Shown here piece after piece: positions 1 to 18,173 of a stretch of 64,000 bases of DNA. The DNA comes from an uncultured bacterium (lineage in GTDB: Bacteria > Fidelibacterota > UBA2242 > JAFGTP01): assembly GCA_964640055.1 (NCBI GenBank), contig CAZXFH010000001.1, positions 6,744 through 70,743 on the forward strand. The letters run 5' to 3'. Position 1 is the stretch's first letter. Each line of letters starts with the position of its first letter. A program made the translations under genes and the position numbers. A model generated the notes under the pieces. The model was given only the letters and a program-made list of their open reading frames with translations. It was not told the DNA's origin and searched no databases.

Positions 1-1057
1 GGCACCTGCTTCCAGCCGTGTGGCCACCATTGGTGGTGAAATCGCCAACAATGCCAGTGGTGTGCGTTCCATAAAATATGGTGCAGTCAGAGATTCCATC
101 CTCGGCATGAAAGTCGTCTTGGCCAACGGTGAATTAATTAATTGCGGAGCCAAAACACGGGTAGAGGCCAGTGGGTATCAGATCGACCGCCTGATGGTCG
201 GTTCTGAAGGCACATTGGGCATCATTGTTGAGGCCACTCTCAAATTTGTACCCATCCCAAAATATCGCTGTCTGGGGATTGCCAAATTCAATCAATTGGA
301 AGAGGCCGGAGATGCAATTAGTGAAATCATGTCCCAACAAATTGATTTATCTCTGCTGGAATTAATGGACAACGTAGCTATTACTGCAGTCAATAAGATT
401 CAGGACATGGGATTACCCGATGTGGAAGCTATCCTGCTTTTCGAAGCGGACGGCATGGCTCAGGCAGTTGTGGACCACTCCGTTGAGCAAGCCAAAAAGG
501 TTTGTGAAAACCATAATGGTTTTGGAATTGAGTTAAGCTATGATGCCAAAGAACGGACCCGGATTTTTGCCGGGCGCAAAAAGTTGTTTCCCTCCCTGTC
601 AAACTATAAGGAATTATATTCCTGTACTTCCCTGGCCGATGATATGGCTGTTCCCTACTCTAAAATGGCAGAAACAGCCCGAAAAATCCACGAAATTGCC
701 AAACGCAATAATGTTATCATGACGGCCTATGGACATTGCGGATCTGGCTGTATGCATACTAAAATTCTTATGGATCCCTATAAGGAAGCCCAATGGGAGG
801 ATGCCAAACAGGCGGTATTTGAAACCTATGAATATGTACGCTCCGTTGGAGGTACTACATCGGCCGAACACGGTATTGGTATTTCCAAAGCACCAGCCTT
901 CAAAAGGGAAAAATCCGATTCTCTGCGAATAATGCGGGCCTTGAAATTGGCCTTCGATCCCAATAATATCCTCAATCCCGGCAAATTAATGGATGCACCG
1001 GAAGACTGGGTTTCAGCTACCAGATTACGCTATCATGTCAAGCAAAAATTAAGTTAA
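1..1057 (+). CDS. FAD-linked oxidase, GlcD / D-2-hydroxyacid (D-lactate) dehydrogenase family; 5' end lies outside the window
   Basis: The frame is open from nt 2 (APASSRVATIGGEIANNASG...), a PCMH FAD-binding domain segment. The C-terminal ...TSAEHGIGISKAPAF matches the GlcD 'EHGIG' region. It sits tightly next to downstream Fe-S genes. Confidence 0.8.
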   Translation, partial: APASSRVATIGGEIANNASGVRSIKYGAVRDSILGMKVVLANGELINCGAKTRVEASGYQIDRLMVGSEGTLGIIVEATLKFVPIPKYRCLGIAKFNQLEEAGDAISEIMSQQIDLSLLELMDNVAITAVNKIQDMGLPDVEAILLFEADGMAQAVVDHSVEQAKKVCENHNGFGIELSYDAKERTRIFAGRKKLFPSLSNYKELYSCTSLADDMAVPYSKMAETARKIHEIAKRNNVIMTAYGHCGSGCMHTKILMDPYKEAQWEDAKQAVFETYEYVRSVGGTTSAEHGIGISKAPAFKREKSDSLRIMRALKLAFDPNNILNPGKLMDAPEDWVSATRLRYHVKQKLS

Positions 1058-1075
1058 TTATCCTGGAGAGCTAAT

Positions 1076-1636
1076 ATGGAATTTAAGCGGTTACAAAAAT
1101 GGGAAGACAAATTAAACGTATGTATCCGGTGCGGATACTGTTTTGAGCATTGTCATCTTTTTAAAACATCCCGCTGGGAAATCGACACTCCTCGTGCTAA
1201 ATTAATCCTTCTCTATGGAATATTACATGGCGAGGTCTTACCAACCGAATATTTGGCCAACAAAATCTTTGAATGTTTCTATTGCAAGCGATGTGATGAC
1301 AATTGTTCCGCCGGTGTCCCGGTTACCGAAATAATTACAGATGCCCGCGCAGATTTGATCGATGCGGGGTTTGACGTTTACGGGACCGTTTCCAAAACAG
1401 ATGATGACCGCTGTGTGCGATGCGGTATTTGTGTCTCGGTTTGCACCAAACAGGAAGCCCGTTCGATCGATTGGGAAAATAAAAAGATGTTGATCGACAG
1501 AACCAAATGCCAGAGTTGTGGCTGCTGTGAAGCCGCCTGCCCCACCGGGGCCGCATATATAGTAAAGGGTTGGGGAGTCAGTGAAGCGGAATTGAAAGAA
1601 AATGTACGTAATTTTCTGCAAGGAGCAAGCCAATGA
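1076..1636 (+). CDS. polyferredoxin-like protein with four CxxCxxCxxxC(P) [4Fe-4S] motifs
   Basis: Motifs CIRCGYCFEHC, CFYCKRCDDNC, CVRCGICVSVC and CQSCGCCEAACP. No CCG (HdrD/GlcF) domains. GGAGA Shine-Dalgarno. Overlaps the next gene by 4 nt. Confidence 0.7.
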   Translation: MEFKRLQKWEDKLNVCIRCGYCFEHCHLFKTSRWEIDTPRAKLILLYGILHGEVLPTEYLANKIFECFYCKRCDDNCSAGVPVTEIITDARADLIDAGFDVYGTVSKTDDDRCVRCGICVSVCTKQEARSIDWENKKMLIDRTKCQSCGCCEAACPTGAAYIVKGWGVSEAELKENVRNFLQGASQ

Positions 1637-2034
1637 ATGATAGCAGGACAATTGTGTTTTGTTGTAACTGGTCCTCTTATCCCGGATTACAAATGTCTAA
1701 ATATTCCGGATCAGGACCGGAGAAAAACCACCATGTTATTGTAAATATGTGTTCCGGAAGAATCTCACCGGAAATAATTATGGACGCTTTCCGCAATCAG
1801 GCGGCCGGAGTGTTAATTGCCAGCTGCCCCCTTGAAGAATGTGAACATGATGCTAACTATAAAACCCGCCGCCGCATCATGTTGTTAAAACGAATGTTAA
1901 ATCAATTTGGCATAGAACCTGAACGTATTCAGTTGGAATGGATTGATAAAGGGGAATCTCAAAAATTACAATCAGTTATCGAAGATTTTACATCTGAAAT
2001 CGATCATTTAGGACCGATTGAAACATATCAGTAA
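1633..2034 (+). CDS. mvhD: MvhD-like hydrogenase delta subunit ([2Fe-2S], methyl-viologen-reducing hydrogenase delta family)
   Basis: FCCNWSSYPG...VNMCSGRISP...GVLIASCPLEECEH matches the MvhD/FlpD signature. AGGAG Shine-Dalgarno. Confidence 0.7.
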   Translation: MNDSRTIVFCCNWSSYPGLQMSKYSGSGPEKNHHVIVNMCSGRISPEIIMDAFRNQAAGVLIASCPLEECEHDANYKTRRRIMLLKRMLNQFGIEPERIQLEWIDKGESQKLQSVIEDFTSEIDHLGPIETYQ

Positions 2035-2087
2035 TTCACTGATGTTTATTTTAATTTATAATTTTTCCTAATTAACTAGGAGGAAAA

Positions 2088-3011
2088 ATGAAAAAAGTAT
2101 CAATCATTGGTAGCGGTAATGTGGGTACAGCCACTGCCTTTTATTTAGCGGAAAAAAATGTTGCTAATATCCAGCTGATTGATATCATTGAGGGGAAAGC
2201 GGAAGGTAGCGCTCTAGATCTGGCCGAAGGTTCCCCCATACGTGGATATGATGTACTTATCAAAGGCGCTTCGGATTTTAAAGCGATAGCAGGCTCACAA
2301 GTAGTTGTTATTACCGCTGGTAAAGTCAGAAAACCAAACACTATCCGTCTCGAGCTACTAGAAGAGAACCGGAAAATTCTGGATGATATTGTCGAAAAGA
2401 TCAAGAAATACGCGCCGGAAGCAGTCGTATTGGTAGTAACTGAACCTGTCTGCACCCTAACCTATTATACCAAAGAGAAAAGTGGTTTTGATCGGTTTAA
2501 AATAATCGGAGTTGCCGGAAAACTGGATACATCCCGGGTTTGTGAATATGTGGCCAAAGCTCTGAATGTTACGCCGGTTGAAGTCTCTGCCCTGGTATTG
2601 GGCGGACATAATGAATACATGGTTATTCCGACGGAGTATATTCGGACCGGCGGTATTCCCGCAGAAGTACTCTTAGGCCGGGAAAAGATAGATGAAATTA
2701 TTACCCAAACCCGCGAAGCCGGCTCTAGGATTCTCTCTTTATTAAAAAAACAAACTTCACAATACTCACCGGCCGCTTCGATAGCAGAAACCGTTGAAGC
2801 CATTATAAGTGATACCAACGCAATTATGTGTGCCTCTGTGTGTCTGGAAGGTGAATATGGCTACAAGAATGTCTGTTTGGGTGTGCCCATCCAGATTGGC
2901 AAATCCGGTGTAAAGAAAATTATTGAGTTGGATCTATCACTTGAAGTCAAAGAAAAGTTGGATCTATCAGAGGAAACCGTGAAAAAAGCCATTGATTCAC
3001 TGGGGATATAG
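2088..3011 (+). CDS. mdh: LDH/MDH-superfamily NAD-dependent dehydrogenase, paralog 1 (Arg at the Q102/R102 specificity position, so malate-dehydrogenase-like)
   Basis: N-terminal Rossmann motif IIGSGNVGTA. Also ITAGKVRKP, LDTSR and catalytic GGHNEY. It has an unusual TEPVC in place of the TNPVD motif. Strong AGGAGG Shine-Dalgarno. Confidence 0.8.
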   Translation: MKKVSIIGSGNVGTATAFYLAEKNVANIQLIDIIEGKAEGSALDLAEGSPIRGYDVLIKGASDFKAIAGSQVVVITAGKVRKPNTIRLELLEENRKILDDIVEKIKKYAPEAVVLVVTEPVCTLTYYTKEKSGFDRFKIIGVAGKLDTSRVCEYVAKALNVTPVEVSALVLGGHNEYMVIPTEYIRTGGIPAEVLLGREKIDEIITQTREAGSRILSLLKKQTSQYSPAASIAETVEAIISDTNAIMCASVCLEGEYGYKNVCLGVPIQIGKSGVKKIIELDLSLEVKEKLDLSEETVKKAIDSLGI

Positions 3012-3020
3012 GAGGTTCAT

Positions 3021-3953
3021 ATGAAAGTAAGTATTATTGGCAGCGGTAAAGTAGGAATTTCCGCAGCGTTATATCTGGCTGAAAAAAAGGTGGCTGATTT
3101 GGTCCTTATCGATGTTGTACCCGGTTGGGCCGCAGGCAATGCTTTGGATATCGTACACTCTGCTCCGATCAGAAGATATGATATATATATTCACGGATAT
3201 GAAGACGTTTCAAAAATAACGGGATCCGATGTAGTCGTCATCACGGCCGGAAAACCCAGACTACCGGGGATGTCGCGGGAAGACTTGCTTTATGACAATA
3301 CAAAAATAATGAGTTCGATTGCGGCTGATGTTGCTAAATATGCACCCAATGCCGTTATTATTACAGTTACCAATCCATTGGATATTTTAGCCTATGTAGC
3401 CTTAAAAGTCTCTGGCTTTGCTCTTAAAAGAGTAATCGGTATGGCCGGTGTTCTCGATTCAACCCGCTTCCGTTATTTTATCGCCAGTGAACTGAAAGTA
3501 AGTCCTAAAAATGTTACAGCCTTGGTTCTGGGCGGTCATGGTGATCTAATGGTCCCCCTGCCCCGCTATTCTTCTGTCCACGGAATCCCTGTCACTGAAT
3601 TATTGTCCAAGTCAAAAATTGATAAATTGGTGGAAAGGACCCGAAAGGCCGGGGGCGAGATCGTCTCCTACCTTAAAACTGGCAGTGCCTATTGGTCGCC
3701 GGGGTGTTCCGTGGCTGAAATGGTCGAATGTATCGTACGTCACCGGCAGCGTATCATTCCTTGTTCAGCCTACTTAAGAGGAGAATATGATATTGATGGT
3801 CTATTCGCCGGTGTTCCGATAAAAATCGGTCGTAACGGTGTGGAAGAAATAATAGAATTGCCTTTGAATACCGGAGAAAAAAAGGCTTTGCATCTTTCTG
3901 CAGAAAAAGTGCGTAGCGTAATCGAGAAACTGGAAAATGAAAAACTGATTTAA
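3021..3953 (+). CDS. mdh: LDH/MDH-superfamily NAD-dependent dehydrogenase, paralog 2 (malate-dehydrogenase-like)
   Basis: IIGSGKVGIS, ITAGKPRLPGMSRED, TNPLDIL, LDSTR and GGHGD. AGGAGG Shine-Dalgarno. Confidence 0.8.
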   Translation: MKVSIIGSGKVGISAALYLAEKKVADLVLIDVVPGWAAGNALDIVHSAPIRRYDIYIHGYEDVSKITGSDVVVITAGKPRLPGMSREDLLYDNTKIMSSIAADVAKYAPNAVIITVTNPLDILAYVALKVSGFALKRVIGMAGVLDSTRFRYFIASELKVSPKNVTALVLGGHGDLMVPLPRYSSVHGIPVTELLSKSKIDKLVERTRKAGGEIVSYLKTGSAYWSPGCSVAEMVECIVRHRQRIIPCSAYLRGEYDIDGLFAGVPIKIGRNGVEEIIELPLNTGEKKALHLSAEKVRSVIEKLENEKLI

Positions 3954-5290
3954 TGCCAATTAAGATTCCGTTCTGGGGAGAAAAAATCAGTATTAATCTT
4001 CCCCAAAAAAATATAGGTGAAATAGTATATCCTAACCGGGTTGATTCGGAACCGGAAAGACAGGTAGTACTGGAATCACTCAAGAATCCGGTTGGCGCTC
4101 CGACTTTAGACAAATTTATCAAGGGAGAAGACCGGATATTATTCATCGTGAATGACGCCACCCGCCCCACGCCCACTGCCAGAATACTGGACCTTCTCTG
4201 GGATAAATTAAAGCATAAAAACATAAAATTTTTAATTGCTACGGGCATGCACCGGGAACCAACCCCGGATGAATACAGGGAAATCTTCGGTGAACGTTAT
4301 CCAATTTTAAAAAATCAGGTTTATTCCCATAACGCTCATGATGATGATCAGAATATTCACCTTGGGAAAACTGATCAGGGATCAGAACTATACTTTAACA
4401 AGCTCGTGGTAGAGACAAAAAAAATAATCTACCTGACTTCAGTTGAACCACATTATTTTGCCGGTTATACTGGTGGCGCAAAATCATTTTTACCGGGCGT
4501 GGCGGGCTATAGAACCATTACTCATAATCATGAATTGGCGCTAAAATTTTCAGCCCGGGCTCTGGAAGTCGAAAATAATCCCGTACGTAAAGATATTGCA
4601 GAAGCTTTCGTCCTTGTCTCCCAAAATAAACAAATCTTTGGTATCCAAACCGTTTTAGATAAAGATCATCGCGTTTATTACTGTGCCTGCGGGGATACCC
4701 ACAAATCTTTTGAGCTGGCTTGTGAAAAAGCCAAAGATGTCTTTTCAGTGGAAATTAAAGATAAAACTGACATAGTAGTAGCGGTTGCCCCCTATCCCAT
4801 GGATATTGATCTCTATCAATCCCAGAAAGCAATTGATAACGCCAAATTGGCCCTTAATGAAAACGGTATTCTCATTCTGGTTTCCAGTTGTCGAAAAGGG
4901 GTGGGTGACGATACTTTTGTAAAGCTGCTCAGTCAATCCAGTAATCCTGATGAAGCACTTAAAAAAATCTCTAAAGGCTATCAATTCGGTTTCCATAAAG
5001 CCTCAAAAATGGCAGAAATTATGAAATGGGCCTCAATATGGGCCTTCACCCGTTTGAATCACAATGTCCTGCAGAATATGTTCATTCAAAAATACACTTC
5101 CCTGCAAGATGCCATCGATGAGGCTCTCCAAAATAAGGGGGATGAAAGAATTCTTTTTCTGATGGATGCCAGTCTGACAGTTCCCAGAGTTGCTGACCGT
5201 CTCTTGCATAAACGCCGCTTTATACACGGACCGATGGAGAGTGAGTATGACTATAGAGATGTAACCTTGGACAATTTTTTTGCAGATTAA
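3953..5290 (+). CDS. larA: LarA-family nickel-pincer-nucleotide-dependent 2-hydroxyacid racemase/epimerase (lactate racemase-like)
   Basis: Motifs NDATRPTPT, ATGMHR, EPHYFAGYTGGAKS (the NPN-tethering Lys), HNH and YQSQKA match LarA signatures. The start overlaps the mdh stop (taATG). Confidence 0.75.
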   Translation: MPIKIPFWGEKISINLPQKNIGEIVYPNRVDSEPERQVVLESLKNPVGAPTLDKFIKGEDRILFIVNDATRPTPTARILDLLWDKLKHKNIKFLIATGMHREPTPDEYREIFGERYPILKNQVYSHNAHDDDQNIHLGKTDQGSELYFNKLVVETKKIIYLTSVEPHYFAGYTGGAKSFLPGVAGYRTITHNHELALKFSARALEVENNPVRKDIAEAFVLVSQNKQIFGIQTVLDKDHRVYYCACGDTHKSFELACEKAKDVFSVEIKDKTDIVVAVAPYPMDIDLYQSQKAIDNAKLALNENGILILVSSCRKGVGDDTFVKLLSQSSNPDEALKKISKGYQFGFHKASKMAEIMKWASIWAFTRLNHNVLQNMFIQKYTSLQDAIDEALQNKGDERILFLMDASLTVPRVADRLLHKRRFIHGPMESEYDYRDVTLDNFFAD

Positions 5291-5353
5291 ATCACAGGAT
5301 AAAAGCCGCATTTATGTTAAAAAGTAAAAATGTTTATAATAATGGAGGAATAA

Positions 5354-6355
5354 ATGGCAAAACCTAAAGTAGCATTCTACTGGTGCGCTTCTTGTGGCGG
5401 GTGTGAAGAAGCCATTGTCGATTTGAATGAAGATTTGGTTAAAGTGGCGGAGCTAGTGGAAATCGCCTTTTGGCCCTGCGCCATGGATTTTAAATACGAA
5501 GATGTTCGTAAAATGAAGACCGATGAACTGGCAGTGGCTTTTATTAATGGGGCGATTCGTACCGATGAACAGGAGGAGATGGCAAACCTCTTGCGGGAAA
5601 AAGCCCAGTTAGTGGTCTCGTTCGGGGCCTGTTCCCACATGGGCGGTATTCCTGGCTTGGGGAATTTCTGGGATCGGGAGACTATTTTTGAGTCCTCATA
5701 CGGAAAGAAGTGTCCCTCCATTGATAATCCAGACGGAATTGTGCCCCAAACCAACAGCAAGGTAAAAGAAGGTGAATTAACCCTCCCCAGCTTTCATAAT
5801 ACAGTGAAAAGTCTGGATCAAGTCGTGGATGTGGATTATTATCTACCTGGCTGTGCACCGGCTCCCTATTTAACCCTGAACGCTGTTAACGCCATTTTAG
5901 AAGGTAATCTGCCCGAAAAAGGCACGGTATTGGCTCCTGAAAAATCACTATGCGATACCTGCTCGCGCAATGAGACTAAACCCGAAAAGCTATCCATTAA
6001 GGAAATTAAAAGAATATCCCTGGCTGAAATAGACCAGGAAAAATGCTTTTTAGCCGAAGGTGTGATATGCCTTGGCCCGGCAACCCGTGCCGGATGCAGC
6101 GAGGAAGGGGACGGCCGCTGTATTGCCGCTAATATGCCCTGCCGGGGATGTTATGGTCCGCCGCCGGGGGTCGTGGATATGGGCGCTAAAATGGTATCAG
6201 CGCTTGCTTCTATCATTGGATTGGAAAATGAAGAGGAGATGGAAGAAGCAGAAGTGGCCAAATTAATAGATCAGGTCGTTGATCCGGCGGGTACTTTTTA
6301 CCGCTTCTCACTACCTGTTTCTCTGCTAAGAAGAAAAAGAATGGTAAAATCCTAA
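5354..6355 (+). CDS. mvhG: [NiFe]-hydrogenase small subunit, group 3 (MvhG-like)
   Basis: N-terminal YWCASCGGCEE proximal-cluster motif. Multiple C-terminal Cys motifs (CDTC, CLGPATRAGC, CRGC). GGAGG Shine-Dalgarno. Confidence 0.75.
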   Translation: MAKPKVAFYWCASCGGCEEAIVDLNEDLVKVAELVEIAFWPCAMDFKYEDVRKMKTDELAVAFINGAIRTDEQEEMANLLREKAQLVVSFGACSHMGGIPGLGNFWDRETIFESSYGKKCPSIDNPDGIVPQTNSKVKEGELTLPSFHNTVKSLDQVVDVDYYLPGCAPAPYLTLNAVNAILEGNLPEKGTVLAPEKSLCDTCSRNETKPEKLSIKEIKRISLAEIDQEKCFLAEGVICLGPATRAGCSEEGDGRCIAANMPCRGCYGPPPGVVDMGAKMVSALASIIGLENEEEMEEAEVAKLIDQVVDPAGTFYRFSLPVSLLRRKRMVKS

Positions 6356-6371
6356 AGGAGGATGACAATCC

Positions 6372-7835
6372 ATGACTAAAAAAATATCGATAGATCCAAT
6401 TACGAGACTTGAAGGCCATGGGAAAATCGAGATTTTCCTCGATGATAGTGGCAATGTAGATAATGCTTATTTGCAGGTACCGGAATTAAAAGGATTTGAA
6501 CAATTCTGTGTAGACCGGCCGGTTGAAGAATTACCACGTATTACCCCCCGGATTTGTGGTGTATGCCCTACCGCCCATCATATGGCTTCCACACGTACTT
6601 TAGATGCAGTGTATCATGTCAAACCTACGGAAACCGCTGAAAAAATCAGACGGCTGATTTATAACTCTTTTATGATGGAAGACCACCTGCTCCACTTCTT
6701 CTTTCTGGGGGGTCCGGATTTTGTAGTAGGACCTGACGCATCCCCGGGAGAGCGGAATATATTAGGTGTCATTGGCAAAGTAGGTCTGGAGATCGGTAAA
6801 AAAGTAATTAATGCCAGAAAAAACCTGCGTAATATTATCACTACCCTGGGTGGCCGTATTATCCATCCGGTTTGTGGATTACCTGGCGGTGTGTCACGGG
6901 GAGTAACCAAGGAAGAACGTGAAGATTTCCTGAAGGTTGCCAAAGATTCCGTTGAATTCGCCAAATTTTCACTAAAAATTTTCAATGATGTTGTCCTCGA
7001 AAATAAGACTTACCTTGATTTAATTGTGGGTGATATTTATAAACATGAAACCTACTATATGGGACTTGTGGATAAGAATAACAAGGTCAATTTTTATGAT
7101 GGCAAAATCCGCGTTGTGGATCCTGCAGGAAAAGAATACGCGAAATTTGCAGTAAAAGACTACCTTGACCACATAGCCGAACATGTGGAGCCCTGGAGTT
7201 ATATCAAATTTCCTTTCCTGAAGAAAATCGGTTGGAAAGGCTTTGAAGATGGACCGGAAAGCAGCATCTACCGGGTTGCTCCCCTAGCCCGCTTAAATGC
7301 CGCCAGTGGTATGGCCACGCCCCTTGCTCAGGAAGAGTATGAGCGGATGTTTGACACCTTGGGTGGTAAGCCCTCTCATTTTACACTGGCTTTTCACTGG
7401 GCGCGTTTAGTGGAAGTCATGTTTTGCGCTGAGCGTCTTGTTCAGTTACTCAAGGATGAGTCTATCACAGATCCTGATATCCGAAATATTCCCACAGAAA
7501 CACCCGATGAGGGGGTTGGTGTGGTGGAAGCACCTCGCGGCACTTTGATTCACCATTATCAAACTGATAAAGACGGCATTGTAACCGCTGCAAATCTAAT
7601 TGTTGCCACCGTGGCTAATTCAGCAGCCATCTCCATGTCAATTGCCAAAGCAGCCAAAAATCTGATCAAAAACGGAAAGGTTGATGACGGCATACTTAAT
7701 ATGGTAGAAATGGCCTTTCGTCCCTATGATCCCTGTCTGGCTTGTGCCACCCACTCACTACCCGGGAAAATGCCCATTATGCTTAATCTCTATGATTCTA
7801 AGGGAAATAAACTCGAAAGTATAAAAAGAGATTAA
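6372..7835 (+). CDS. mvhA: [NiFe]-hydrogenase large subunit, group 3 (MvhA-like)
   Basis: L1 motif RICGVCPTAHH and L2 motif DPCLACATH. A roughly 25-aa C-terminal extension follows the His, as expected for maturation-protease cleavage. Confidence 0.85.
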   Translation: MTKKISIDPITRLEGHGKIEIFLDDSGNVDNAYLQVPELKGFEQFCVDRPVEELPRITPRICGVCPTAHHMASTRTLDAVYHVKPTETAEKIRRLIYNSFMMEDHLLHFFFLGGPDFVVGPDASPGERNILGVIGKVGLEIGKKVINARKNLRNIITTLGGRIIHPVCGLPGGVSRGVTKEEREDFLKVAKDSVEFAKFSLKIFNDVVLENKTYLDLIVGDIYKHETYYMGLVDKNNKVNFYDGKIRVVDPAGKEYAKFAVKDYLDHIAEHVEPWSYIKFPFLKKIGWKGFEDGPESSIYRVAPLARLNAASGMATPLAQEEYERMFDTLGGKPSHFTLAFHWARLVEVMFCAERLVQLLKDESITDPDIRNIPTETPDEGVGVVEAPRGTLIHHYQTDKDGIVTAANLIVATVANSAAISMSIAKAAKNLIKNGKVDDGILNMVEMAFRPYDPCLACATHSLPGKMPIMLNLYDSKGNKLESIKRD

Positions 7836-7851
7836 TCAAAATAGAGTATCA

Positions 7852-8304
7852 ATGAAAACTCTTATCCTCGGTCTCGGTAATCCCATTCTCACCGACGACA
7901 GTGTAGGCATTCGTATTGCTCAAGAGATCAGAGCACAATGCTCTCAGCTTGATGTCACAGAAGCCAGTGCGGCTGGTTTTCGCGTAATCGATGAAATTAT
8001 CGGTTATGACAAATTACTGATTATTGATTCTATTAAAACGGGTAAAGCTGCACCCGGTACTTTATTTAAATTTAATACCGAGGATTTTAAAAATACGCTC
8101 CATTTTTCTTCTCCTCACGATATTTCCTTTTTTGATGCCATGGAAATTATGCGGGCAGAACAGGAGAAGTTACCGTCTCAAATTGCCATCTATGCTATTG
8201 AAGTACAAAACACAACCACTTTTTCGGAACAATGTACCAAGCCCGTTGAAGCTGTGATTCCGCAGGTTGCCAGACAAATAATCAGAGAGCAATCACTGGC
8301 TTAA
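7852..8304 (+). CDS. hydrogenase maturation endopeptidase (HycI/HoxW/FrhD family)
   Basis: LILGLGNPILTDDSVGIRIA matches the N-terminal family signature. About 150 aa, immediately after the large subunit. Confidence 0.75.
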   Translation: MKTLILGLGNPILTDDSVGIRIAQEIRAQCSQLDVTEASAAGFRVIDEIIGYDKLLIIDSIKTGKAAPGTLFKFNTEDFKNTLHFSSPHDISFFDAMEIMRAEQEKLPSQIAIYAIEVQNTTTFSEQCTKPVEAVIPQVARQIIREQSLA

Positions 8305-8362
8305 TCCAATTGATATGGAACAGAATAAATATAATCACCTTTAAAATATAGCAAAGGAGAAA

Positions 8363-10057
8363 TTGATGAACCAAGAAAACATGAACCGCTGGCAGGTTGA
8401 TGCGAAAGGCTTGAACTATTTTCCAATAGTCAAAAGAGGACTGGAAATCATCCGGGACCCTTTACTAAATAAAGGAACCGCTTTTTCCAAGCGTGAACGG
8501 GATGAGCTGGGCTTGCAAGGCCTGGTACCGCCGCACCAATCAACTGTGGAGGAACAATTAAAGCGGGTTAAAGGTAACTATGAGCGGAAAAATACAGATA
8601 TTGGTAAATATATATTCTTAGAGGCCTTACATGACCGTAACGAAAACCTTTACTATCGGTTATTACTGGAAAATTTAGAAGAGATGACTCCCATTGTTTA
8701 TACTCCTACCGTTGGTCAAGCCTGTCAGGAATATGGTAATATCTATCGAAGAGCCAGGGGAATGTATATTGCTTCCCATATGAGAGGAAAAATTGATAAA
8801 TGCATCAGAAACTGGCCCGAAGATAATATTGATGTGATTGTTGTAACTGATGGCAGCCGCATACTGGGATTGGGTGATTTAGGGGCAAGCGGGATCGGAA
8901 TTCCTATCGGAAAGTTATCGCTTTACGTGGCTTGCGCCGGCATATATCCTTCAAAAACCCTGCCCATTGTCATTGATGTAGGGACTAATAATGAGAAATT
9001 CTTAAAGGATCCCCTCTATTTGGGAGAGCGTCATCCCCGTCTGACGGGTGATGAATATTTTGATCTTATTGACGAATTTATATCTGCCGCCCATCGGCGC
9101 TGGCCTAAAGCACTAATCCAATTTGAAGACTTTACCAATGATAATGCCTTTAAATTACTGGAAAGGTACCGTTATAAATTGTTGTCTTTCAACGATGATA
9201 TTCAGGGAACGGGCGGAGTAGCCTTAGCCGGATTACTGGCCTCTCTAAGGATAACCAAAGAAAAACTAACCGATCAACGCATCGTATTTTTAGGAGCGGG
9301 TTCAGCAGCAGTAGGTATCGCAGATATGATCGTGGCCGGAATGCAGGAAGAAGGGCTTAGCAATAAAGAAGCACGTGAACGATTTTGGTTCCTGGATAGC
9401 AAAGGTCTGGTTACGCACCAACGCAAAGATAAATTAGCCGAACATAAATTACCCTATGCTCGTAAAGAGAAGTTTATCAAAACCCTGGTAGATGTGGTGG
9501 ATGCAGTAAAACCTACTGTATTAATTGGAGTCAGTAAACAACCGGGCGCCTTCAATGAAAATGTTATTAAAACAATGCAAAAACATGTAGAGCACCCCAT
9601 CATCTTTGCGCTTTCAAATCCCACTTCCAAATCTGAATGCACAGCTCAACAAGCCTATGAGTGGACAAATGGTAAGGTAATCTTTGCCAGTGGCAGTCCT
9701 TTTAAACCGGTCACCTATAAAGGAACGACCTATGAAATCGGACAAGGAAATAATATGTATATTTTTCCGGGCGTTGGTCTGGGCGCTGTGGCTTGTCGGG
9801 CGATAAAGATAACCGACTCTATGTTCTACGCCGGTGCGAAAGCCTTGGCTGAACTTGTAGACCAAAAAACCTTGAATAAAGGCAAAGTATATCCTGACTT
9901 AAAAAACATTAGAGACATCTCTGCTGAAATTGCTACTGCAGTTTGTCGGGTCGCTTATGCGGAAGGATTAGCCTGGGAAAAAGAACCAGAAGATATAAAT
10001 GAATTCGTAAAAAGCAAAACCTACAATCCAATTTATTTACCCTATAAAGCAATCTAA
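8363..10057 (+). CDS. maeA: NAD-dependent malic enzyme (large, eukaryote-like form)
   Basis: N-terminal LNKGTAFSKRERDELGLQGLVPP and the FNDDIQGTGGVALAG and LGAGSAAVGIA motifs. 564 aa. Confidence 0.85.
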   Translation: MMNQENMNRWQVDAKGLNYFPIVKRGLEIIRDPLLNKGTAFSKRERDELGLQGLVPPHQSTVEEQLKRVKGNYERKNTDIGKYIFLEALHDRNENLYYRLLLENLEEMTPIVYTPTVGQACQEYGNIYRRARGMYIASHMRGKIDKCIRNWPEDNIDVIVVTDGSRILGLGDLGASGIGIPIGKLSLYVACAGIYPSKTLPIVIDVGTNNEKFLKDPLYLGERHPRLTGDEYFDLIDEFISAAHRRWPKALIQFEDFTNDNAFKLLERYRYKLLSFNDDIQGTGGVALAGLLASLRITKEKLTDQRIVFLGAGSAAVGIADMIVAGMQEEGLSNKEARERFWFLDSKGLVTHQRKDKLAEHKLPYARKEKFIKTLVDVVDAVKPTVLIGVSKQPGAFNENVIKTMQKHVEHPIIFALSNPTSKSECTAQQAYEWTNGKVIFASGSPFKPVTYKGTTYEIGQGNNMYIFPGVGLGAVACRAIKITDSMFYAGAKALAELVDQKTLNKGKVYPDLKNIRDISAEIATAVCRVAYAEGLAWEKEPEDINEFVKSKTYNPIYLPYKAI

Positions 10058-10185
10058 GTAGCGGAGTATATTCAAATGTTTTTAACTAAATAATTAATAT
10101 TATTCAATGATTAAATACCGGGAATTTAAAATAATTCAATGGCTGAGGCTATATATATTAAACAAAATTAATTAAGGGGGTAATT

Positions 10186-11913
10186 ATGTCAAGCTTACCA
10201 AGTTATCAATTTTATGATGACATAAAAGAAATGTCACCTCCACGGGCAATCGCAGAAACGATCATGTTAAATCCTAAGATACGTAAAGTCACTCCGGCAG
10301 AGGCCTATGAGATGGCCTTGAAACAGCCAGGCATTGCCGTAACCGATCTTGACATCTATCCACCTTTTGCAGAAAAATTAGGCCTACCTCACGGTTCGAA
10401 AGTACTCAATGATTGTCATGGAAAAATTATTGGACGCACAGCAAAAGCACGTCGCTTTTATAATCGTATCTCAGAAAGTGAAAAGCACAAAGTAGAGGGT
10501 GATTTACGGGAGGCGGTCTATCAGATAGAACATTACGAGCTGATTAAAGCCGAAGCGGTCCTGGGTCTTGATCCCGATTTGATGCTGAAAGCCACTTTTA
10601 TTACAACTGCCGGCGATGCCAACAATATGTTCAACTGGTTGACTAATTTCGCACCTTTTGACCTGATGGCTGAAAAATATGCAAATAGTAATCCCTTACC
10701 TATTCAGGACATTATTATAGTGGCCTTTAATGATTGGACCTGCGAAGATCCTTATTACCATAATGTAGGCGCCCCCCAATTAGCACTAGTCGATGAAAAA
10801 CATAATGTGATCTTTAACTTGGGAATGCGTTATTTTGGTGAACGTAAAAAAGGCACCCTCACCCTGGCCTGGACATCAGGAATGCGTCTGGGAATGGCCG
10901 CCTGTCATGGCGGAATAAAAGAAATCGACTTTTCTGACTGTGCGCCCCAGCATAAACAGCTGGGTAAGAAATCTATTGCCTTTTTCGGCCTGTCAGGAAC
11001 GGGTAAATCCTCACACACTAATTCACCGGATAACGGAGGTACATTACCCGAAGGATTTAAAAAAGCGGTTTTACATGATGATGCCTTCCAGATTGATCCG
11101 AAGGATAAAGTCTGCCGTGTCTGGGAACCATCTCTATTCGATAAAACCGACAGTCGCGGACTCGAACATCCGGAATGGAAATATGCGCTGGCCTTGATGA
11201 ATCATGCCCTTTTAGAAGTGAATGATACCCTCCTACCCCTTGGACTGGATGTGCGGCAAGGTAACGGTCGCGCCTTGTTCGATAGAGACCTGCTAGGTAA
11301 ATGGGTTAACAAATGTACTTTCCCGACTGCCTTAGCTTGGCTAATGAAAGATACTGTTCTACCACCAGTGATCAAATATAATAATAAATACCTGGCGGTG
11401 GCGATGGGTGCTGCTCTGATCACCAAGCGAACCCGGGCTGAAAACGTTACCGAAGAAGAACTTAATAAATTGGTGTTCGAACCTTTTGCCAATCCTTTCC
11501 GAGTTTACGAACTATATAAAGATGTGGAAGCTTTTATAAAGGTCCTGGAAACCGGTGCGGACTGTTACACCTTCAATTCATCCGGTTTCTGGAAGTATTC
11601 AGATCATGATCTGGATGACATTAAACTCCAAACCTCATTGACTATTCAGACAGGCATTCTTACGGATCAATTAGAATGGGAAGATTGGGATCTCCTACCC
11701 GGAGCCATGATTCCCACTAAAGACAGTATTGACCAGCTCATTCCGGGATATTATGAAAAATATCATCCCCGAGATCGAAAACATATGAATATATACATTA
11801 ATACCCTCAAAGACCGTTTTAAACAGCGTCAAGACTTCCTGAAATCCTCTGATCTTAGCACAAAGCCAAAACTGCTGGAAAAATTAGCGGATGCCCTTAA
11901 AATCAAAGCATAA
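10186..11913 (+). CDS. pckA: phosphoenolpyruvate carboxykinase (ATP), divergent
   Basis: Kinase-1a FFGLSGTGKSS and YFGERKKG (PEPCK Y-GE-KKG) motifs. AGGGGG Shine-Dalgarno. Confidence 0.65.
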   Translation: MSSLPSYQFYDDIKEMSPPRAIAETIMLNPKIRKVTPAEAYEMALKQPGIAVTDLDIYPPFAEKLGLPHGSKVLNDCHGKIIGRTAKARRFYNRISESEKHKVEGDLREAVYQIEHYELIKAEAVLGLDPDLMLKATFITTAGDANNMFNWLTNFAPFDLMAEKYANSNPLPIQDIIIVAFNDWTCEDPYYHNVGAPQLALVDEKHNVIFNLGMRYFGERKKGTLTLAWTSGMRLGMAACHGGIKEIDFSDCAPQHKQLGKKSIAFFGLSGTGKSSHTNSPDNGGTLPEGFKKAVLHDDAFQIDPKDKVCRVWEPSLFDKTDSRGLEHPEWKYALALMNHALLEVNDTLLPLGLDVRQGNGRALFDRDLLGKWVNKCTFPTALAWLMKDTVLPPVIKYNNKYLAVAMGAALITKRTRAENVTEEELNKLVFEPFANPFRVYELYKDVEAFIKVLETGADCYTFNSSGFWKYSDHDLDDIKLQTSLTIQTGILTDQLEWEDWDLLPGAMIPTKDSIDQLIPGYYEKYHPRDRKHMNIYINTLKDRFKQRQDFLKSSDLSTKPKLLEKLADALKIKA

Positions 11914-11947
11914 TTTTTCAAACTCACCACTTATTGAGTTTGAAAAA
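11914..11947 (+). terminator. perfect 13-bp inverted repeat (TTTTTCAAACTCA-N8-TGAGTTTGAAAAA) directly after the pckA stop; intrinsic terminator or regulator-binding palindrome
   Basis: All 13 positions pair. The stem is AT-rich and the downstream T-run is weak. Confidence 0.4.
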
Positions 11948-12206
11948 TTGGGCATATCATAACGGACCATTGTTCATAATCACCATTACGGGAATCTATG
12001 GGCTCAACACATAAAATATTTAATTATTATAATTTGGAAGTTAATTATTTCAAGCAATAATATTTGAACGTAAATTGAAGCCGGTTTGTACCTTTATTCA
12101 TTACTAAATTTTTACTTTATTATTAATTCCCTTTTATTTATTTTATACTCAGAATTATGTTATAACGATAGTATTATTTTTAATTAATTAATCAGGGGAG
12201 GACGAA

Positions 12207-13508: not shown

Positions 13509-13530
13509 AGGAAAGGAAAAGCAAACCGCT

Positions 13531-15465: not shown

Positions 15466-15498
15466 TTATAATCATCATAGGGACTGGAAGGAGCTATT

Positions 15499-16845: not shown

Positions 16846-16860
16846 ATGTGGGAGATTATT

Positions 16861-17532
16861 ATGAAATCCTTGGACAAACTTCTTTCGAAAGCAGAGCAGC
16901 ATAAAATGGAGGGCCGCCTTGATGAGGCTCTAACACTGTATGAAAATATCATCAAAGAGAACCCAGGAAATATTCCCACCTTGATGAATTTGGGCAATCT
17001 ATATTACATATCCGGTGATTTAAAAAAATCCATTCATGCCTATCAGGAAGTACTCAATTTGAAACCCAAGTTCAGCTTCGCTCTCTATAAATTAGGGGTG
17101 GCTTATTATCGGGCAGCCCATTTCAGGGAAGCTATTGAAACGCTCCATAAAGTCTTGAAAGTCGATCCGGAATTATATATGTCTCATTATTGGTTAGGAT
17201 TGTCATATTATCACATTGGCAAGGCTGAAAAAAGTGTGGAATCCTACCAAAACCTATTAAAAGAAAGTAAAGAGGTTTTCCTGGGACATTATTATTTAGC
17301 CATGGCTCTGAAAGCCTCCGGAAAGTACCGGGAAGCCAAACAGCATTTGGAAAAACTTATCGAAGACAATCCCAAGCACAGTTCGGCCCATTACCATTTA
17401 GGCGGGGTCTATATGGCGATCCATGCTATGGACGATGCTATCAAAATGTTTAAGAAGGTACTTGAACTGGATCCTGAACATACGGGCGCTGCTAACAAAC
17501 TGGAATATCTGACCAATGTTCCGCCTATTTAA
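16861..17532 (+). CDS. TPR-repeat protein
   Basis: Repeated TPR-like A..Y...G.Y.EA helices. Start chosen at MKSLDKL with a GGGAG Shine-Dalgarno; the ORF-track ATG at 16846 overlaps the icd stop. Confidence 0.6.
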   Translation: MKSLDKLLSKAEQHKMEGRLDEALTLYENIIKENPGNIPTLMNLGNLYYISGDLKKSIHAYQEVLNLKPKFSFALYKLGVAYYRAAHFREAIETLHKVLKVDPELYMSHYWLGLSYYHIGKAEKSVESYQNLLKESKEVFLGHYYLAMALKASGKYREAKQHLEKLIEDNPKHSSAHYHLGGVYMAIHAMDDAIKMFKKVLELDPEHTGAANKLEYLTNVPPI

Positions 17533-17556
17533 TAAACAAAAATAGATAATATTATT

Positions 17557-18147: not shown

Positions 18148-18173
18148 ACAGGTCGGTTTCCCAGAATACAACC

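What the first reader, a model, noticed from the sequence alone, without database searches (positions are those of the whole stretch)
3953..5290. LarA-family nickel-pincer racemase without larBCE, sandwiched between MDH-like dehydrogenases and a hydrogenase
The ORF carries the LarA hallmarks: the TRPTPT loop, GMHR, EPHYFAGxxGGxKS with the NPN-binding Lys, HNH and QSQKA. The LarA superfamily includes racemases and epimerases for lactate, malate and other 2-hydroxyacids. Its placement directly after two Arg-102-type (malate-specific-like) dehydrogenases, with start/stop overlap, suggests a malate or other hydroxyacid racemase. It could feed a stereospecific FAD dehydrogenase, namely the GlcD-like D-isomer enzyme at the start of the window. 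No NPN-cofactor biosynthesis genes (larB, larC, larE) are in the window.
Basis: partly seen in the sequence, partly recalled or inferred. Interest (0 to 1): 0.6.

Follow-up and report, generated by a model that had tools for sequence, protein, structure and literature searches.

The report
Predicted malate racemase in hydrogenase operon
The gene is a real nickel-cofactor racemase of a published but never biochemically tested "putative malate racemase" group, and its conserved neighbours suggest it links ordinary L-malate metabolism to a D-specific flavoenzyme wired to a hydrogenase.

Summary
The ORF at 3953-5290 (+, 445 aa) is real and is a LarA-family protein: Pfam Lar_N 5e-55 plus LarA_C 3e-15, and an AlphaFold model with TM 0.83-0.87 to solved LarA structures. 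All nickel-pincer-cofactor and catalytic residues are present. It does not belong to the lactate racemases or to the two verified malate racemase groups. With 100/100 bootstraps it falls in "Group 4, putative malate racemases" of Desguin et al. 2020. That group shares the active-site signature of the verified malate racemase Mar2, but no member has ever shown activity. Homologues in 80 other species all keep the same signature. Their neighbours recur: a tandem pair of malate dehydrogenase paralogues directly upstream in 21 loci, and a GlcD-type FAD dehydrogenase (34), an Fe-S subunit (49) or MvhD (31) within 10 kb. Some also have fumarase, citrate lyase, malic enzyme, an Mvh [NiFe] hydrogenase or further TCA enzymes nearby. 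In this window the MDH-MDH-LarA triad sits inside a GlcD-FeS-MvhD-MvhG-MvhA-protease operon that is contiguous in another lineage. larB, larC and larE are absent from the window and from all 87 related loci; the rest of the genome could not be searched. The most likely function is L/D-malate racemisation feeding a D-specific dehydrogenase. This is a new member of a known kind with an informative context.

The parts
3953..5290 (+). LarA-family gene (445 aa), Group 4 'putative malate racemase'
   Evidence: ORF. Pfam Lar_N and LarA_C. Best solved structure by sequence is Mar2, 3.8e-62. 45% identity to the Group 4 reference MMALV_14900 against 32% to Mar2. Clade bootstrap 100/100. AF2 pLDDT 88.8, and TM 0.83-0.87 to LarA structures.
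4154..4177 (+). NDATRPTPT loop with D68 and R71 (LarA D72 catalytic, R75 cofactor phosphate)
   Evidence: Alignment to L. plantarum LarA. Invariant in 44 homologues.
4244..4255 (+). GMHR motif with H100 (LarA H108, first catalytic His)
4445..4486 (+). EPHYFAGYTGGAKS: H167 (second catalytic His), substrate loop Y168-F169, T173, K177 (cofactor-tethering Lys)
   Evidence: The Y-F loop is the same as in most Group 4 and Group 6 sequences.
4523..4531 (+). HNH with H193 (LarA H200, nickel ligand)
4814..4831 (+). YQSQKA: Y288, Q289, Q291, K292 (LarA Y294, Q295, V297, K298). Q291 matches Q293 of Mar2.
4988..4999 (+). GFHK: H348 and K349, the 'GHK' signature of predicted malate racemases (Mar2 H350 and K351)
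5189..5287 (+). C-terminal extension (residues 413-445) with the basic motif RLLHKRRFIH. It is specific to the MDH-associated subclade and mostly predicted disordered (pLDDT <50 for residues 418-439).
2088..3011 (+). MDH1: divergent LDH/MDH-family paralogue (Glu in place of Asn140, altered mobile loop, GGHH)
   Evidence: Always followed by an MDH2-type gene.
3021..3953 (+). MDH2: canonical NAD malate dehydrogenase. Its stop overlaps the larA start.
   Evidence: TIGR01763 400 bits, above the 352 cutoff. TAATG overlap.
20..1057 (+). GlcD-type FAD-linked D-2-hydroxyacid dehydrogenase, 5' end cut by the window edge
   Evidence: Pfam FAD-oxidase_C and FAD_binding_4. The full-length orthologue is closest to LctD, 7qh2_C, at 1.4e-72.
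1076..1636 (+). Fe-S subunit (Fer4_8 plus a 2x[4Fe-4S] ferredoxin domain, no CCG domain)
   Evidence: Fused to MvhD in L073 and, by ORF length, L025.
1633..2034 (+). MvhD/FlpD-type subunit
   Evidence: Pfam FlpD 1.1e-37
5354..7835 (+). Mvh/Vhu-type [NiFe] hydrogenase small (5354-6355) and large (6372-7835) subunits
   Evidence: best NCBIfam hits VhuG 180 bits and VhuA 426 bits, both below the curated cutoffs of 450 and 800
7852..8304 (+). Hydrogenase maturation protease
8363..10057 (+). NAD malic enzyme, first of a run of C4/TCA genes (PEPCK-like, citrate synthase, aconitase, IDH up to 16845)

Best explanation
The gene encodes a nickel-pincer-nucleotide (NPN) dependent 2-hydroxyacid racemase of the LarA superfamily whose substrate is most likely malate. 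By analogy with LarA (inferred), one catalytic His (H100 or H167) removes the hydroxyl proton of malate. The C2 hydride moves to C4 of the Lys177-tethered, His193-ligated NPN cofactor, leaving bound oxaloacetate. The hydride then returns to the opposite face while the other His donates a proton. K349 and H348 (the GHK motif) and Q291 would hold the second carboxylate. In the cell it would act as a stereochemical adaptor. Fumarase, the two NAD malate dehydrogenases and malic enzyme make or use L-malate. The co-encoded GlcD-type flavoenzyme, with its Fe-S and MvhD subunits and the Mvh [NiFe] hydrogenase, belongs to a family that acts on D-2-hydroxyacids. The racemase would join the two pools. 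Thermodynamics favour H2-driven reduction of oxaloacetate to D-malate followed by conversion to L-malate (inferred). Family membership, intact active site, clade placement and conserved synteny are shown here. The substrate, the direction of flux, the physical complex and the cofactor supply are inferred.
For: Family and fold: Pfam Lar_N 5.3e-55 and LarA_C 3.2e-15. PDB sequence hits are Mar2 at 3.8e-62 and LarA structures at 1e-44 to 1e-52. The AF2 model has pLDDT 88.8 and TM 0.83-0.87 to LarA structures.

Active site: D68, R71, H100, H167, K177, H193, Y288, Q289 and K292 align with the LarA catalytic and NPN residues. They are identical in all 80 species-level homologues.

Malate signature: Q291-K292 and G346-x-H348-K349 match Mar2 Q293-K294 and G-A-H350-K351. 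They also match the published rule that malate racemases have H/Q and K at the positions of LarA W358 and T359.

Placement: the best NCBIfam model is the LarAH6 malate racemase at 365 bits, against 282 for lactate racemase. BLASTP gives 45% identity and 370 bits to the Group 4 'MAR?' member MMALV_14900, against 32% to Mar2 and 31% to LarA. Window, loci and Group 4 references are monophyletic in 100/100 bootstraps.

Context: MDH1-MDH2-LarA is adjacent in 21/80 loci. Within 10 kb there is a GlcD homologue in 34/80, FeS in 49/80, MvhD in 31/80 and MvhA in 8/80. Further examples are citrate lyase-MDH1-MDH2-LarA-GlcD-fumarase-CCG protein, Mvh-SucCD-fumarase-MDH1-MDH2-LarA-ME-PEPCK, and citrate synthase-aconitase-LarA next to a contiguous GlcD-FeS-MvhD-MvhG-MvhA-protease operon.

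Precedent: GlcD-family D-2-hydroxyglutarate dehydrogenases oxidise D-malate to oxaloacetate (Guo et al. 2018, as cited in PMC12294151).

Cofactor: in Desguin et al. 2020, 28% of Group 4 genes lie next to larB, larC and larE, so the group is linked to NPN.
Against: No Group 4 enzyme has been shown to be active. The one tested (LarAH4, refolded from urea) had no activity in any assay, including malate.

The protein scores below the curated NCBIfam cutoffs of both malate racemase families: 365 against 500, and 281 against 462.

The partner flavoenzyme is closer in sequence to the D-lactate dehydrogenase LctD (1.4e-72) than to D-2-hydroxyglutarate dehydrogenase (9e-43). D-2-hydroxyglutarate dehydrogenase is the GlcD-family enzyme for which D-malate oxidation was found in the papers read here.

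larB, larC and larE were found neither in the window nor within 10 kb of any of 87 related loci. The source genome could not be searched.

No physiological need for D-malate is established for these organisms.
Confidence: 0.6

Rival explanations
1. It is a lactate racemase. It would supply D-lactate to, or remove it from, an LctD-like D-lactate dehydrogenase (GlcD-FeS-MvhD), as larA-type genes do next to GlcD-type lactate dehydrogenases in lactate-utilisation operons.
For: Public annotations call the relatives 'nickel-dependent lactate racemase'. The GlcD orthologue is closest to LctD of the Acetobacterium woodii lactate dehydrogenase/Etf complex and to mammalian D-lactate dehydrogenase. True lactate racemases (Group 1) are associated with COG0277 (GlcD) in 35% of cases. 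Malic enzyme in the operon makes pyruvate.
Against: The lactate racemase signature F-F...V-K...W-(T/E/Q) is replaced by Y-F...Q-K...H-K in the window and in all 80 homologues. The NCBIfam lactate racemase model gives 282 bits against a 460 cutoff, which is lower than the malate racemase model. Identity to LarA is only 31%. The clade is separate from Groups 1-3 in 100/100 bootstraps. The immediate, translationally coupled neighbours are malate dehydrogenases with Arg102, not lactate dehydrogenases.
Confidence: 0.12
2. It racemises or epimerises another dicarboxylic 2-hydroxyacid of central metabolism. Candidates are 2-hydroxyglutarate (for example L-2-hydroxyglutarate made by MDH side activity, converted to the D form for a D-2-hydroxyglutarate-dehydrogenase-like GlcD enzyme), tartrate or isocitrate.
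For: Three of the four specificity positions (Y, F, H) also fit the published 2-hydroxyglutarate racemase rule Y, F, H/Q, T. IDH, aconitase and glutamate dehydrogenase are in the window. GlcD-family D-2-hydroxyglutarate dehydrogenases exist and also take D-malate. Verified malate racemases epimerise tartrate as a side activity, and the authors doubt that malate is the native substrate of Mar1, whose Km is 55 mM.
Against: 2-Hydroxyglutarate racemase groups carry N-x-Q-T where this protein has G-x-H-K, and V/I where it has Y288. The most frequent immediate neighbours are malate enzymes: the MDH pair, fumarase and malic enzyme. Identity to Hgr is 32% with only 156 bits.
Confidence: 0.15
3. It does not work as an NPN racemase in this organism. 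It would be either a cofactor-less relic, because the genome lacks larBCE, or an enzyme doing a different hydride-transfer reaction.
For: No larB, larC or larE in the window or in 1.47 Mb of related loci. The only Group 4 enzyme tested was inactive. The literature notes that some LarA homologues may catalyse other hydride-mediated reactions.
Against: Every NPN-binding and catalytic residue is invariant across 80 species from many phyla, which argues for selection on cofactor binding and two-His catalysis. In Desguin et al. 2020, 28% of Group 4 genes lie next to larB, larC and larE. In the published survey larBCE neighbour only 28-42% of the larA homologues in the groups read here, so they are commonly unlinked. 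The inactive LarAH4 had been denatured and refolded.
Confidence: 0.05

Closest known systems
LarAH Group 4, 'putative malate racemases' (Desguin et al. 2020, Sci Rep 10:18123; e.g. MMALV_14900 of Ca. Methanomethylophilus alvus, Kcr_0555 of Korarchaeum, LarAH4)
   Same: Same clade (100/100 bootstraps), with 37-45% identity. The signature D R H H Y F K H .. Y Q Q K G x H K is identical. The published gene context is the same kind: Fe-S oxidoreductase 39%, GlcD 17%, MvhD 17%.
   Different: The window protein belongs to a bacterial subclade (Cloacimonadota, WOR-3, Edwardsbacteria; 71/100 bootstraps). This subclade has a 30-45 aa basic C-terminal extension and a tandem MDH pair directly upstream. 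COG0039 (MDH) does not occur in the held supplementary files, which include the context table (Table S1). The group has no biochemically verified member.
Mar2 / LarAH6 malate racemase of Thermoanaerobacterium thermosaccharolyticum (PDB 6d6z, 7s91)
   Same: It is the best solved-structure hit by sequence (3.8e-62) and LarAH6 is the best NCBIfam family. It shares Q before the catalytic Lys and the G-x-H-K motif with the Lys proposed to bind the second carboxylate.
   Different: Identity is only 32%. The NCBIfam score is below the equivalog cutoff, 365 against 500. It lies in a different phylogenetic group. The substrate loop is Y-K in Mar2 and Y-F here, although Y-F is usual in Group 6. Mar2 context is mostly unlinked to redox partners: malic enzyme 15%, GlcD 12%.
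LarA lactate racemase of Lactiplantibacillus plantarum (PDB 5huq)
   Same: Same fold (TM 0.84). Same NPN-tethering Lys, Ni-ligand His, two catalytic His and carboxylate-binding residues. The proton-coupled hydride-transfer mechanism is presumably the same.
   Different: The substrate pocket residues differ: F-F, V and W-T in LarA against Y-F, Q and H-K here. LarA lies in a larA-larB-larC-larD-larE operon, whereas no larBCE is near this gene.
Lactate-utilisation operons in which a LarA-type racemase accompanies a GlcD-type D-lactate dehydrogenase and EtfAB (Acetobacterium woodii lct operon; LctD structure 7qh2)
   Same: The logic is the same: a racemase lets a stereospecific GlcD-family flavoenzyme draw on both enantiomers. 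The GlcD orthologue is closest to LctD. Group 1 larA genes are associated with GlcD (35%) and Etf (33%). That the A. woodii operon contains a racemase gene is from my own knowledge.
   Different: Here the electron-transfer partners are a ferredoxin-like Fe-S subunit, MvhD and an Mvh [NiFe] hydrogenase, not EtfAB. The predicted substrate is malate, not lactate.
MvhADG-HdrABC hydrogenase/heterodisulfide reductase complex
   Same: Subunits of MvhA, MvhG and MvhD type and a maturation protease are present. Cloacimonadota clade B genomes are reported to carry MvhADG-HdrABC.
   Different: In this operon MvhD is preceded by a GlcD flavoenzyme and a small Fe-S protein instead of HdrABC, and a racemase and two MDH genes are inserted between mvhD and mvhG. 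No HdrA is visible in the window, though an HdrA-like gene lies upstream in the related locus L037.

Membership tests
LarA superfamily (NPN-dependent 2-hydroxyacid racemases/epimerases) | Two-domain LarA fold (Lar_N plus LarA_C) | tested here: met
   Pfam 5.3e-55 and 3.2e-15. AF2 model TM 0.83-0.87 to 2yjg, 5huq and 9eia.
LarA superfamily (NPN-dependent 2-hydroxyacid racemases/epimerases) | Cofactor-binding residues: tethering Lys (K184), Ni-ligand His (H200), phosphate-binding Arg (R75) | tested here: met
   K177, H193 and R71. Invariant in 44 and in 80 homologues.
LarA superfamily (NPN-dependent 2-hydroxyacid racemases/epimerases) | Two catalytic His (H108, H174) plus D72, and the Y294/Q295/K298 carboxylate site | tested here: met
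   H100, H167, D68, Y288, Q289, K292
LarA superfamily (NPN-dependent 2-hydroxyacid racemases/epimerases) | NPN biosynthesis genes larB, larC and larE present in the same genome | not testable with these tools
   Absent from the 64-kb window and from 87 related loci.
LarA superfamily (NPN-dependent 2-hydroxyacid racemases/epimerases) | Nickel- and NPN-dependent inversion at C2 of a 2-hydroxyacid | not testable with these tools
   Requires an enzyme assay.
LarAH Group 4 'putative malate racemases' (Desguin et al. 2020) | Phylogenetic placement with Group 4 reference sequences | tested here: met
   Best BLASTP hits are MMALV_14900 at 45%, TALC_01392 at 43% and Kcr_0555 at 37%. NJ clade 100/100 bootstraps.
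LarAH Group 4 'putative malate racemases' (Desguin et al. 2020) | Signature D R H H Y F K H . Y Q Q K G H K | tested here: met
Verified malate racemases (LarAH6/Mar2 and LarAH5/Mar1 families) | H/Q and K at the positions of LarA W358/T359, and Q before the catalytic Lys | tested here: met
   H348, K349, Q291
Verified malate racemases (LarAH6/Mar2 and LarAH5/Mar1 families) | Score above the curated NCBIfam equivalog cutoff (NF052593: 500; NF052595: 462) | tested here: not met
   365.3 and 281.2 bits. It is therefore not filed as a member of either verified family.
Verified malate racemases (LarAH6/Mar2 and LarAH5/Mar1 families) | Malate racemase activity | not testable with these tools
   The only Group 4 enzyme assayed, refolded LarAH4, was inactive.
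Lactate racemase (LarA, Group 1) | Pocket signature F175, F176, V297, W358 and T/E/Q359, and NCBIfam NF033504 cutoff 460 | tested here: not met
   Y, F, Q, H, K at those positions. 281.8 bits.
2-Hydroxyglutarate racemase (Groups 7a and 11) | Signature Y, F, H/Q, T with the N-x-Q-T motif, and V/I at position 294 | tested here: not met
   G-F-H-K and Y288 here

The most novel reading that the evidence does not exclude
GlcD-FeS-MvhD and MvhGA would form a previously undescribed hydrogenase-linked D-malate/oxaloacetate oxidoreductase, in which oxaloacetate takes the place that heterodisulfide has in Mvh-Hdr. The LarA homologue would be its obligatory stereochemical adaptor to L-malate metabolism. 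With the translationally coupled MDH pair it could even close an oxaloacetate -> D-malate -> L-malate -> oxaloacetate cycle that moves electrons from H2 to NAD+ without an NAD-reducing hydrogenase. Standard potentials allow this (my own knowledge): H2 to oxaloacetate is about -47 kJ/mol, L-malate to NAD+ about +30 kJ/mol, so about -18 kJ/mol overall. This would give malate racemases, the largest predicted group of the LarA superfamily, their first physiological role.
Probability: 0.2. Interest if true: 0.75.

Novelty: new member of a known kind. Interest (0 to 1): 0.4.

Why it matters
Malate racemases are predicted to be the largest functional group of the nickel-pincer LarA superfamily, yet the authors who defined them say their role in vivo is unknown. 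This locus and its relatives in at least 80 species put a never-assayed group of them next to malate dehydrogenases, fumarase, malic enzyme and citrate lyase. They also put it next to a D-specific GlcD-type flavoenzyme whose electron-transfer subunits are of the Mvh/Hdr type, sometimes inside a [NiFe] hydrogenase operon.

That gives a concrete, testable hypothesis: a D-malate branch connects the C4 part of the TCA cycle to hydrogen or low-potential electron carriers in uncultivated anaerobes such as Cloacimonadota and WOR-3.

It also flags a likely systematic mis-annotation, since these proteins are named 'nickel-dependent lactate racemase' in public records. Two recent surveys of Cloacimonadota metabolism do not mention the racemase at all.

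Tried and rejected
Source contig. Exact-sequence look-ups failed for the LarA protein, for its 100% identical database entry P0001 and for MDH2. The organism and the rest of the genome therefore stayed out of reach. The nearest species-level relatives are 60-65% identical Cloacimonadota MAGs, two of them labelled Armatimonadota.

larBCE detection. A regex scan with motifs recalled from memory was too weak to rely on. I replaced it with tblastn using LarB, LarC and LarE taken from an annotated L. paracasei plasmid lar operon, and the result was again negative. I did not use the last wide protein search with a LarC seed, because only the 120 hits closest to Lactobacillus would be listed.

Phylogeny. 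The first bootstrap run timed out. I redid it with 42 sequences and my own distance code. Deep branching between the LarAH groups is not resolved by this NJ tree, so I make no claim about which group is sister to Group 4.

LarAH62. The third verified malate racemase could not be placed, because its sequence is not in the held text or supplements.

Promoter and terminator scan of 1-18500. It found fewer sites than shuffled sequence does, so it says nothing about operon boundaries. The single-operon reading rests on gene spacing only.

Literature. A search for racemase + MvhD + GlcD found no paper that describes this module. An HdrD/GlcD unit in archaea has been discussed as lactate-linked and 'puzzling'.

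Flavoenzyme pocket. I considered using pocket residues of the GlcD enzyme to decide between D-malate and D-lactate. I dropped this because the relevant reference alignments could not be displayed.


Full report
**1. The observation**

An ORF of 445 codons runs from 3953 to 5290 on the + strand. Its ATG shares one base with the stop codon of the upstream gene (TAATG). Pfam finds both LarA domains: Lar_N at 5.3e-55 and LarA_C at 3.2e-15. The closest solved structures by sequence are:
- the malate racemase Mar2, 6d6z, at 3.8e-62;
- the Thermoanaerobacterium lactate racemase apoprotein, at 2.7e-52;
- L. plantarum LarA, at 1.3e-44.

An AlphaFold2 model built on 44 homologues has mean pLDDT 88.8. 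It superposes on LarA structures with TM 0.83-0.87.

In a MAFFT alignment with L. plantarum LarA they carry D68, R71, H100, H167, K177, H193, Y288, Q289 and K292. These are the equivalents of D72, R75, H108, H174, K184, H200, Y294, Q295 and K298.

**2. The neighbourhood**

The genes on the + strand, with gaps of -4 to 64 bases from the GlcD-like gene through malic enzyme, are:

| Coordinates | Gene |
|---|---|
| 20-1057 | GlcD-like FAD dehydrogenase, cut by the window edge |
| 1076-1636 | small Fe-S protein (Fer4_8 plus a two-cluster ferredoxin domain) |
| 1633-2034 | MvhD |
| 2088-3011 | MDH1 |
| 3021-3953 | MDH2 |
| 3953-5290 | LarA |
| 5354-6355 | MvhG-type hydrogenase small subunit |
| 6372-7835 | MvhA-type hydrogenase large subunit |
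| 7852-8304 | hydrogenase maturation protease |
| 8363-10057 | NAD malic enzyme |
| 10186-16845 | PEPCK-like protein, citrate synthase, aconitase, isocitrate dehydrogenase |

MDH2 passes the curated MDH cutoff, 400 bits against 352. MDH1 does not, at 303 bits.

No ORF scanned in the window matches the LarB (AIRC) or LarC (DUF111) Pfam families or a PP-loop ATPase of the kind LarE would hit. tblastn with LarB, LarC and LarE from an annotated lar operon finds nothing in any frame at E<=1.

**3. Which LarA it is**

NCBIfam ranks the LarAH6 malate racemase model first at 365 bits. Lactate racemase (282), LarAH5 malate racemase (281) and LarAH10 (271) follow. All are below their equivalog cutoffs.

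Desguin et al. 2020 (PMC7583248) divided 354 LarA homologues into 25 groups and published the sequences with their active-site signatures. BLASTP against representatives gives:

| Reference | Group | Identity | Bits |
|---|---|---|---|
| MMALV_14900 | 4 | 45% | 370 |
| TALC_01392 | 4 | 43% | 355 |
| Kcr_0555 | 4 | 37% | 258 |
| Mar2 | 6 | 32% | 215 |
| LarA | 1 | 31% | 166 |
| Hgr | 7a | 32% | 156 |
| Mar1 | 5 | 27% | 154 |

In a neighbour-joining tree the window protein, 26 homologues from other species and the three Group 4 references form a clade in 100 of 100 bootstraps. Deeper branching is not resolved.

The paper labels Group 4 'putative malate racemases' because its signature contains the same G-H-K motif as Groups 5 and 6. 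The window protein has exactly that signature: D R H H Y F .. K H .. Y Q Q K .. G F H K. So do all 80 homologues retrieved from species-representative genomes.

Q291 corresponds to Q293 of Mar2. H348 and K349 correspond to H350 and K351 of Mar2, where the Lys is proposed to bind the second carboxylate of malate. The later rule of the same laboratory is that malate racemases have H/Q and K at the positions of LarA W358 and T359 (PMC11770544). That rule is also met.

There is a caveat. The single Group 4 enzyme tested, LarAH4 refolded from urea, showed no activity on any substrate. The group therefore remains unverified. Public records name these proteins 'nickel-dependent lactate racemase', which the pocket residues contradict.

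**4. Context in other genomes**

One scan of species-representative genomes returned 80 loci with homologues at 45-65% identity, from Cloacimonadota, WOR-3, Edwardsbacteria, Dehalococcoidia, Acidobacteriota, Desulfobacterota, Spirochaetia, Myxococcota, Methanomassiliicoccales and others. tblastn of the window's proteins against these loci gave the following counts:

| Feature | Loci (of 80) |
|---|---|
| Tandem MDH1-MDH2 directly upstream of larA | 21 |
| GlcD homologue within 10 kb | 34 |
| Fe-S subunit within 10 kb | 49 |
| MvhD within 10 kb | 31 |
| GlcD-FeS immediately adjacent | 21 |
| MvhA within 10 kb | 8 |
| TCA cycle, malic enzyme or PEPCK genes | 12 |
| None of these | 12 |

Individual loci add detail:
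- A 374-kb contig has citrate lyase, MDH1, MDH2, LarA, GlcD, fumarase alpha and beta, and a Fer4_8+CCG protein.
- L023 has FeS, MvhD, MvhG, MvhA, protease, SucC, SucD, a TPR protein, fumarase alpha and beta, MDH1, MDH2, LarA, malic enzyme and PEPCK.
- L085 has LarA, citrate synthase, aconitase and IDH.
- In L073 (Pfam-confirmed) and L025 (by ORF length) the Fe-S protein and MvhD are fused into one protein of about 320 aa between GlcD and LarA.
- L076 has citrate synthase, aconitase and LarA, followed by a convergent, contiguous GlcD-FeS-MvhD-MvhG-MvhA-protease operon.

Against L076, the window looks like that hydrogenase operon with the MDH1-MDH2-LarA triad inserted between mvhD and mvhG. The published context table for Group 4 already lists Fe-S oxidoreductase (39%), GlcD (17%) and MvhD (17%). 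COG0039 (malate dehydrogenase) does not occur in the held supplementary files, which include that table.

**5. The most likely mechanism**

The chemistry is inferred from LarA. The cofactor is tethered to K177 and its nickel is ligated by H193. It accepts the C2 hydride while H100 or H167 takes the hydroxyl proton. The oxaloacetate intermediate is then re-reduced from the other face. K349, H348 and Q291 would hold the distal carboxylate.

The biological role is inferred from synteny and enzyme stereochemistry. Fumarase, LDH-like MDHs and malic enzyme handle L-malate. GlcD/VAO-family dehydrogenases act on D-2-hydroxyacids, and D-2-hydroxyglutarate dehydrogenases of that family oxidise D-malate to oxaloacetate. 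A racemase is what would be needed to connect the two.

The direction is inferred from standard potentials (my own knowledge): H+/H2 at -414 mV, oxaloacetate/malate at about -170 mV. Without a bifurcating partner, a GlcD-FeS-MvhD-MvhGA chain can only run from H2 to oxaloacetate. The D-malate made would then be converted to L-malate for fumarase or MDH. An HdrA-like gene and a second MvhD lie upstream of the GlcD gene in the related Cloacimonadota locus L037. The window is cut at that point, so a bifurcating or confurcating arrangement cannot be excluded.

I put 0.6 on malate racemase with this adaptor role. I put about 0.95 on the narrower statement that it is an NPN-type 2-hydroxyacid racemase.

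**6. Rivals**

Lactate racemase (0.12). The GlcD orthologue is closest to LctD and to mammalian D-lactate dehydrogenase, and Group 1 racemases also sit next to GlcD genes. However, the pocket signature, the model scores and the neighbours point away from lactate.

Another dicarboxylic 2-hydroxyacid, such as 2-hydroxyglutarate or tartrate (0.15). Three of the four specificity positions also fit the 2-hydroxyglutarate rule, and 2-oxoglutarate-producing enzymes are nearby. However, the N-x-Q-T motif and V/I294 of those racemases are absent.

A cofactor-less relic or a different reaction (0.05). No larBCE was found in 1.47 Mb of related loci. However, all cofactor and catalytic residues are invariant in 80 species, and 28% of published Group 4 genes lie next to larBCE.

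**7. What could not be done**

- The third verified malate racemase, LarAH62, could not be placed for lack of a sequence.
- The promoter and terminator scan was uninformative.

**8. Novelty and score**

The protein is a new member of a described but unverified group, so it is not categorically new. What adds value is the conserved MDH1-MDH2-LarA triad and its placement inside a GlcD/Mvh hydrogenase operon. Neither the LarA superfamily papers I read nor two recent Cloacimonadota surveys mention a racemase, and the latter discuss MvhADG-HdrABC.

This gives a testable physiological role for malate racemases, whose function in vivo is an acknowledged open question. Interest is 0.4. The hydrogenase-linked D-malate reading would deserve about 0.75 if shown, and I give it about 0.2.

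Noticed in passing
window 2088-3011 (MDH1); also L089 6001-7977 and L090 6001-7971: MDH1 belongs to a distinct LDH/MDH-like subfamily. Glu replaces the conserved Asn140 (window LVVTEPVC, relatives xTEPVD). The mobile loop is AGxVRKPNTxRLEL rather than AGxPRxPGMSRDDL, and GGHH replaces GGHGD, while the R102, R109, D168, R171 and H195 equivalents are kept. It is always followed by a canonical MDH2-type gene. This holds even without LarA, in loci where the pair sits next to fumarase or succinyl-CoA synthetase and HdrC/HdrB/HdrA-like genes. A heteromeric or Hdr-linked malate dehydrogenase is conceivable.
   Followed up: partly
window 5189-5287 (LarA residues 413-445): The LarA homologues that follow an MDH pair have a 30-45 aa C-terminal extension with a conserved basic motif, RxLHKR(R/K)FI(H/Y). 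It is absent from the ~414-aa homologues that follow GlcD-FeS-MvhD. Residues 418-439 are predicted disordered, so it may be a docking tail.
   Followed up: partly
L076 7695-13109 compared with window 20-8304: In another lineage GlcD-FeS-MvhD-MvhG-MvhA-protease is one contiguous operon. The window has the same genes in the same order with MDH1-MDH2-LarA inserted between mvhD and mvhG.
   Followed up: yes
L037 762-9928: A related Cloacimonadota locus has an HdrA-like gene, MvhD, an Fe-S protein and a fumarate-reductase-like flavoprotein (FAD_binding_2), then GlcD, GTP-PEPCK, FeS, MvhD and LarA. The part of the window's cluster lost upstream of position 1 may therefore hold Hdr-type bifurcation genes.
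   Followed up: partly
L009, L011, L020 (~6660-6680) and L087 6697-8007: WOR-3-type genomes carry a second LarA paralogue. It is 35-37% identical to the window protein in L009, L011 and L020. In L087, the one locus with gene calls, it lies on the opposite strand directly upstream of the MDH1-MDH2-LarA triad.
   Followed up: no
L073 5904-11245: In a Desulfobacterium chromosome the GlcD-FeS::MvhD-LarA module directly follows MetV-like and MetF methylene-tetrahydrofolate reductase genes and a pyruvate:ferredoxin oxidoreductase.
   Followed up: no
window 10186-11913: A 575-aa ORF has only a weak, partial PEPCK_ATP match (7e-10, residues 102-304). It is nevertheless 76-78% identical in Cloacimonadota loci and always lies near malic enzyme. 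It may be a divergent PEP carboxykinase-like enzyme.
   Followed up: no
window 48867-50369 (- strand): A single 500-aa ORF combines a CDP-alcohol phosphatidyltransferase domain (residues 21-174) with an FtsY/SRP54-type GTPase (227-497). This is either an unusual fusion or two genes merged by ORF calling.
   Followed up: no
window 56626-59598: A 990-aa protein has a weak response-regulator receiver match (28.5 bits, just under the Pfam cutoff of 30.2) followed by a PPDK_N (PEP-utilising, ATP-binding) domain.
   Followed up: no
window 61817-63986: NuoE-like (2Fe-2S) and NuoF-like (FMN, Fe-S) genes lie at the window end. These are typical of NADH-linked bifurcating hydrogenases or formate dehydrogenases, so a second hydrogen-related redox module may continue beyond the window.
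   Followed up: no
window 20920-28479 (- strand): A PorV homologue (type IX secretion) lies next to two ORFs of more than 1000 aa, which were not scanned against Pfam. This is consistent with an FCB-group or Cloacimonadota-like organism.
   Followed up: no
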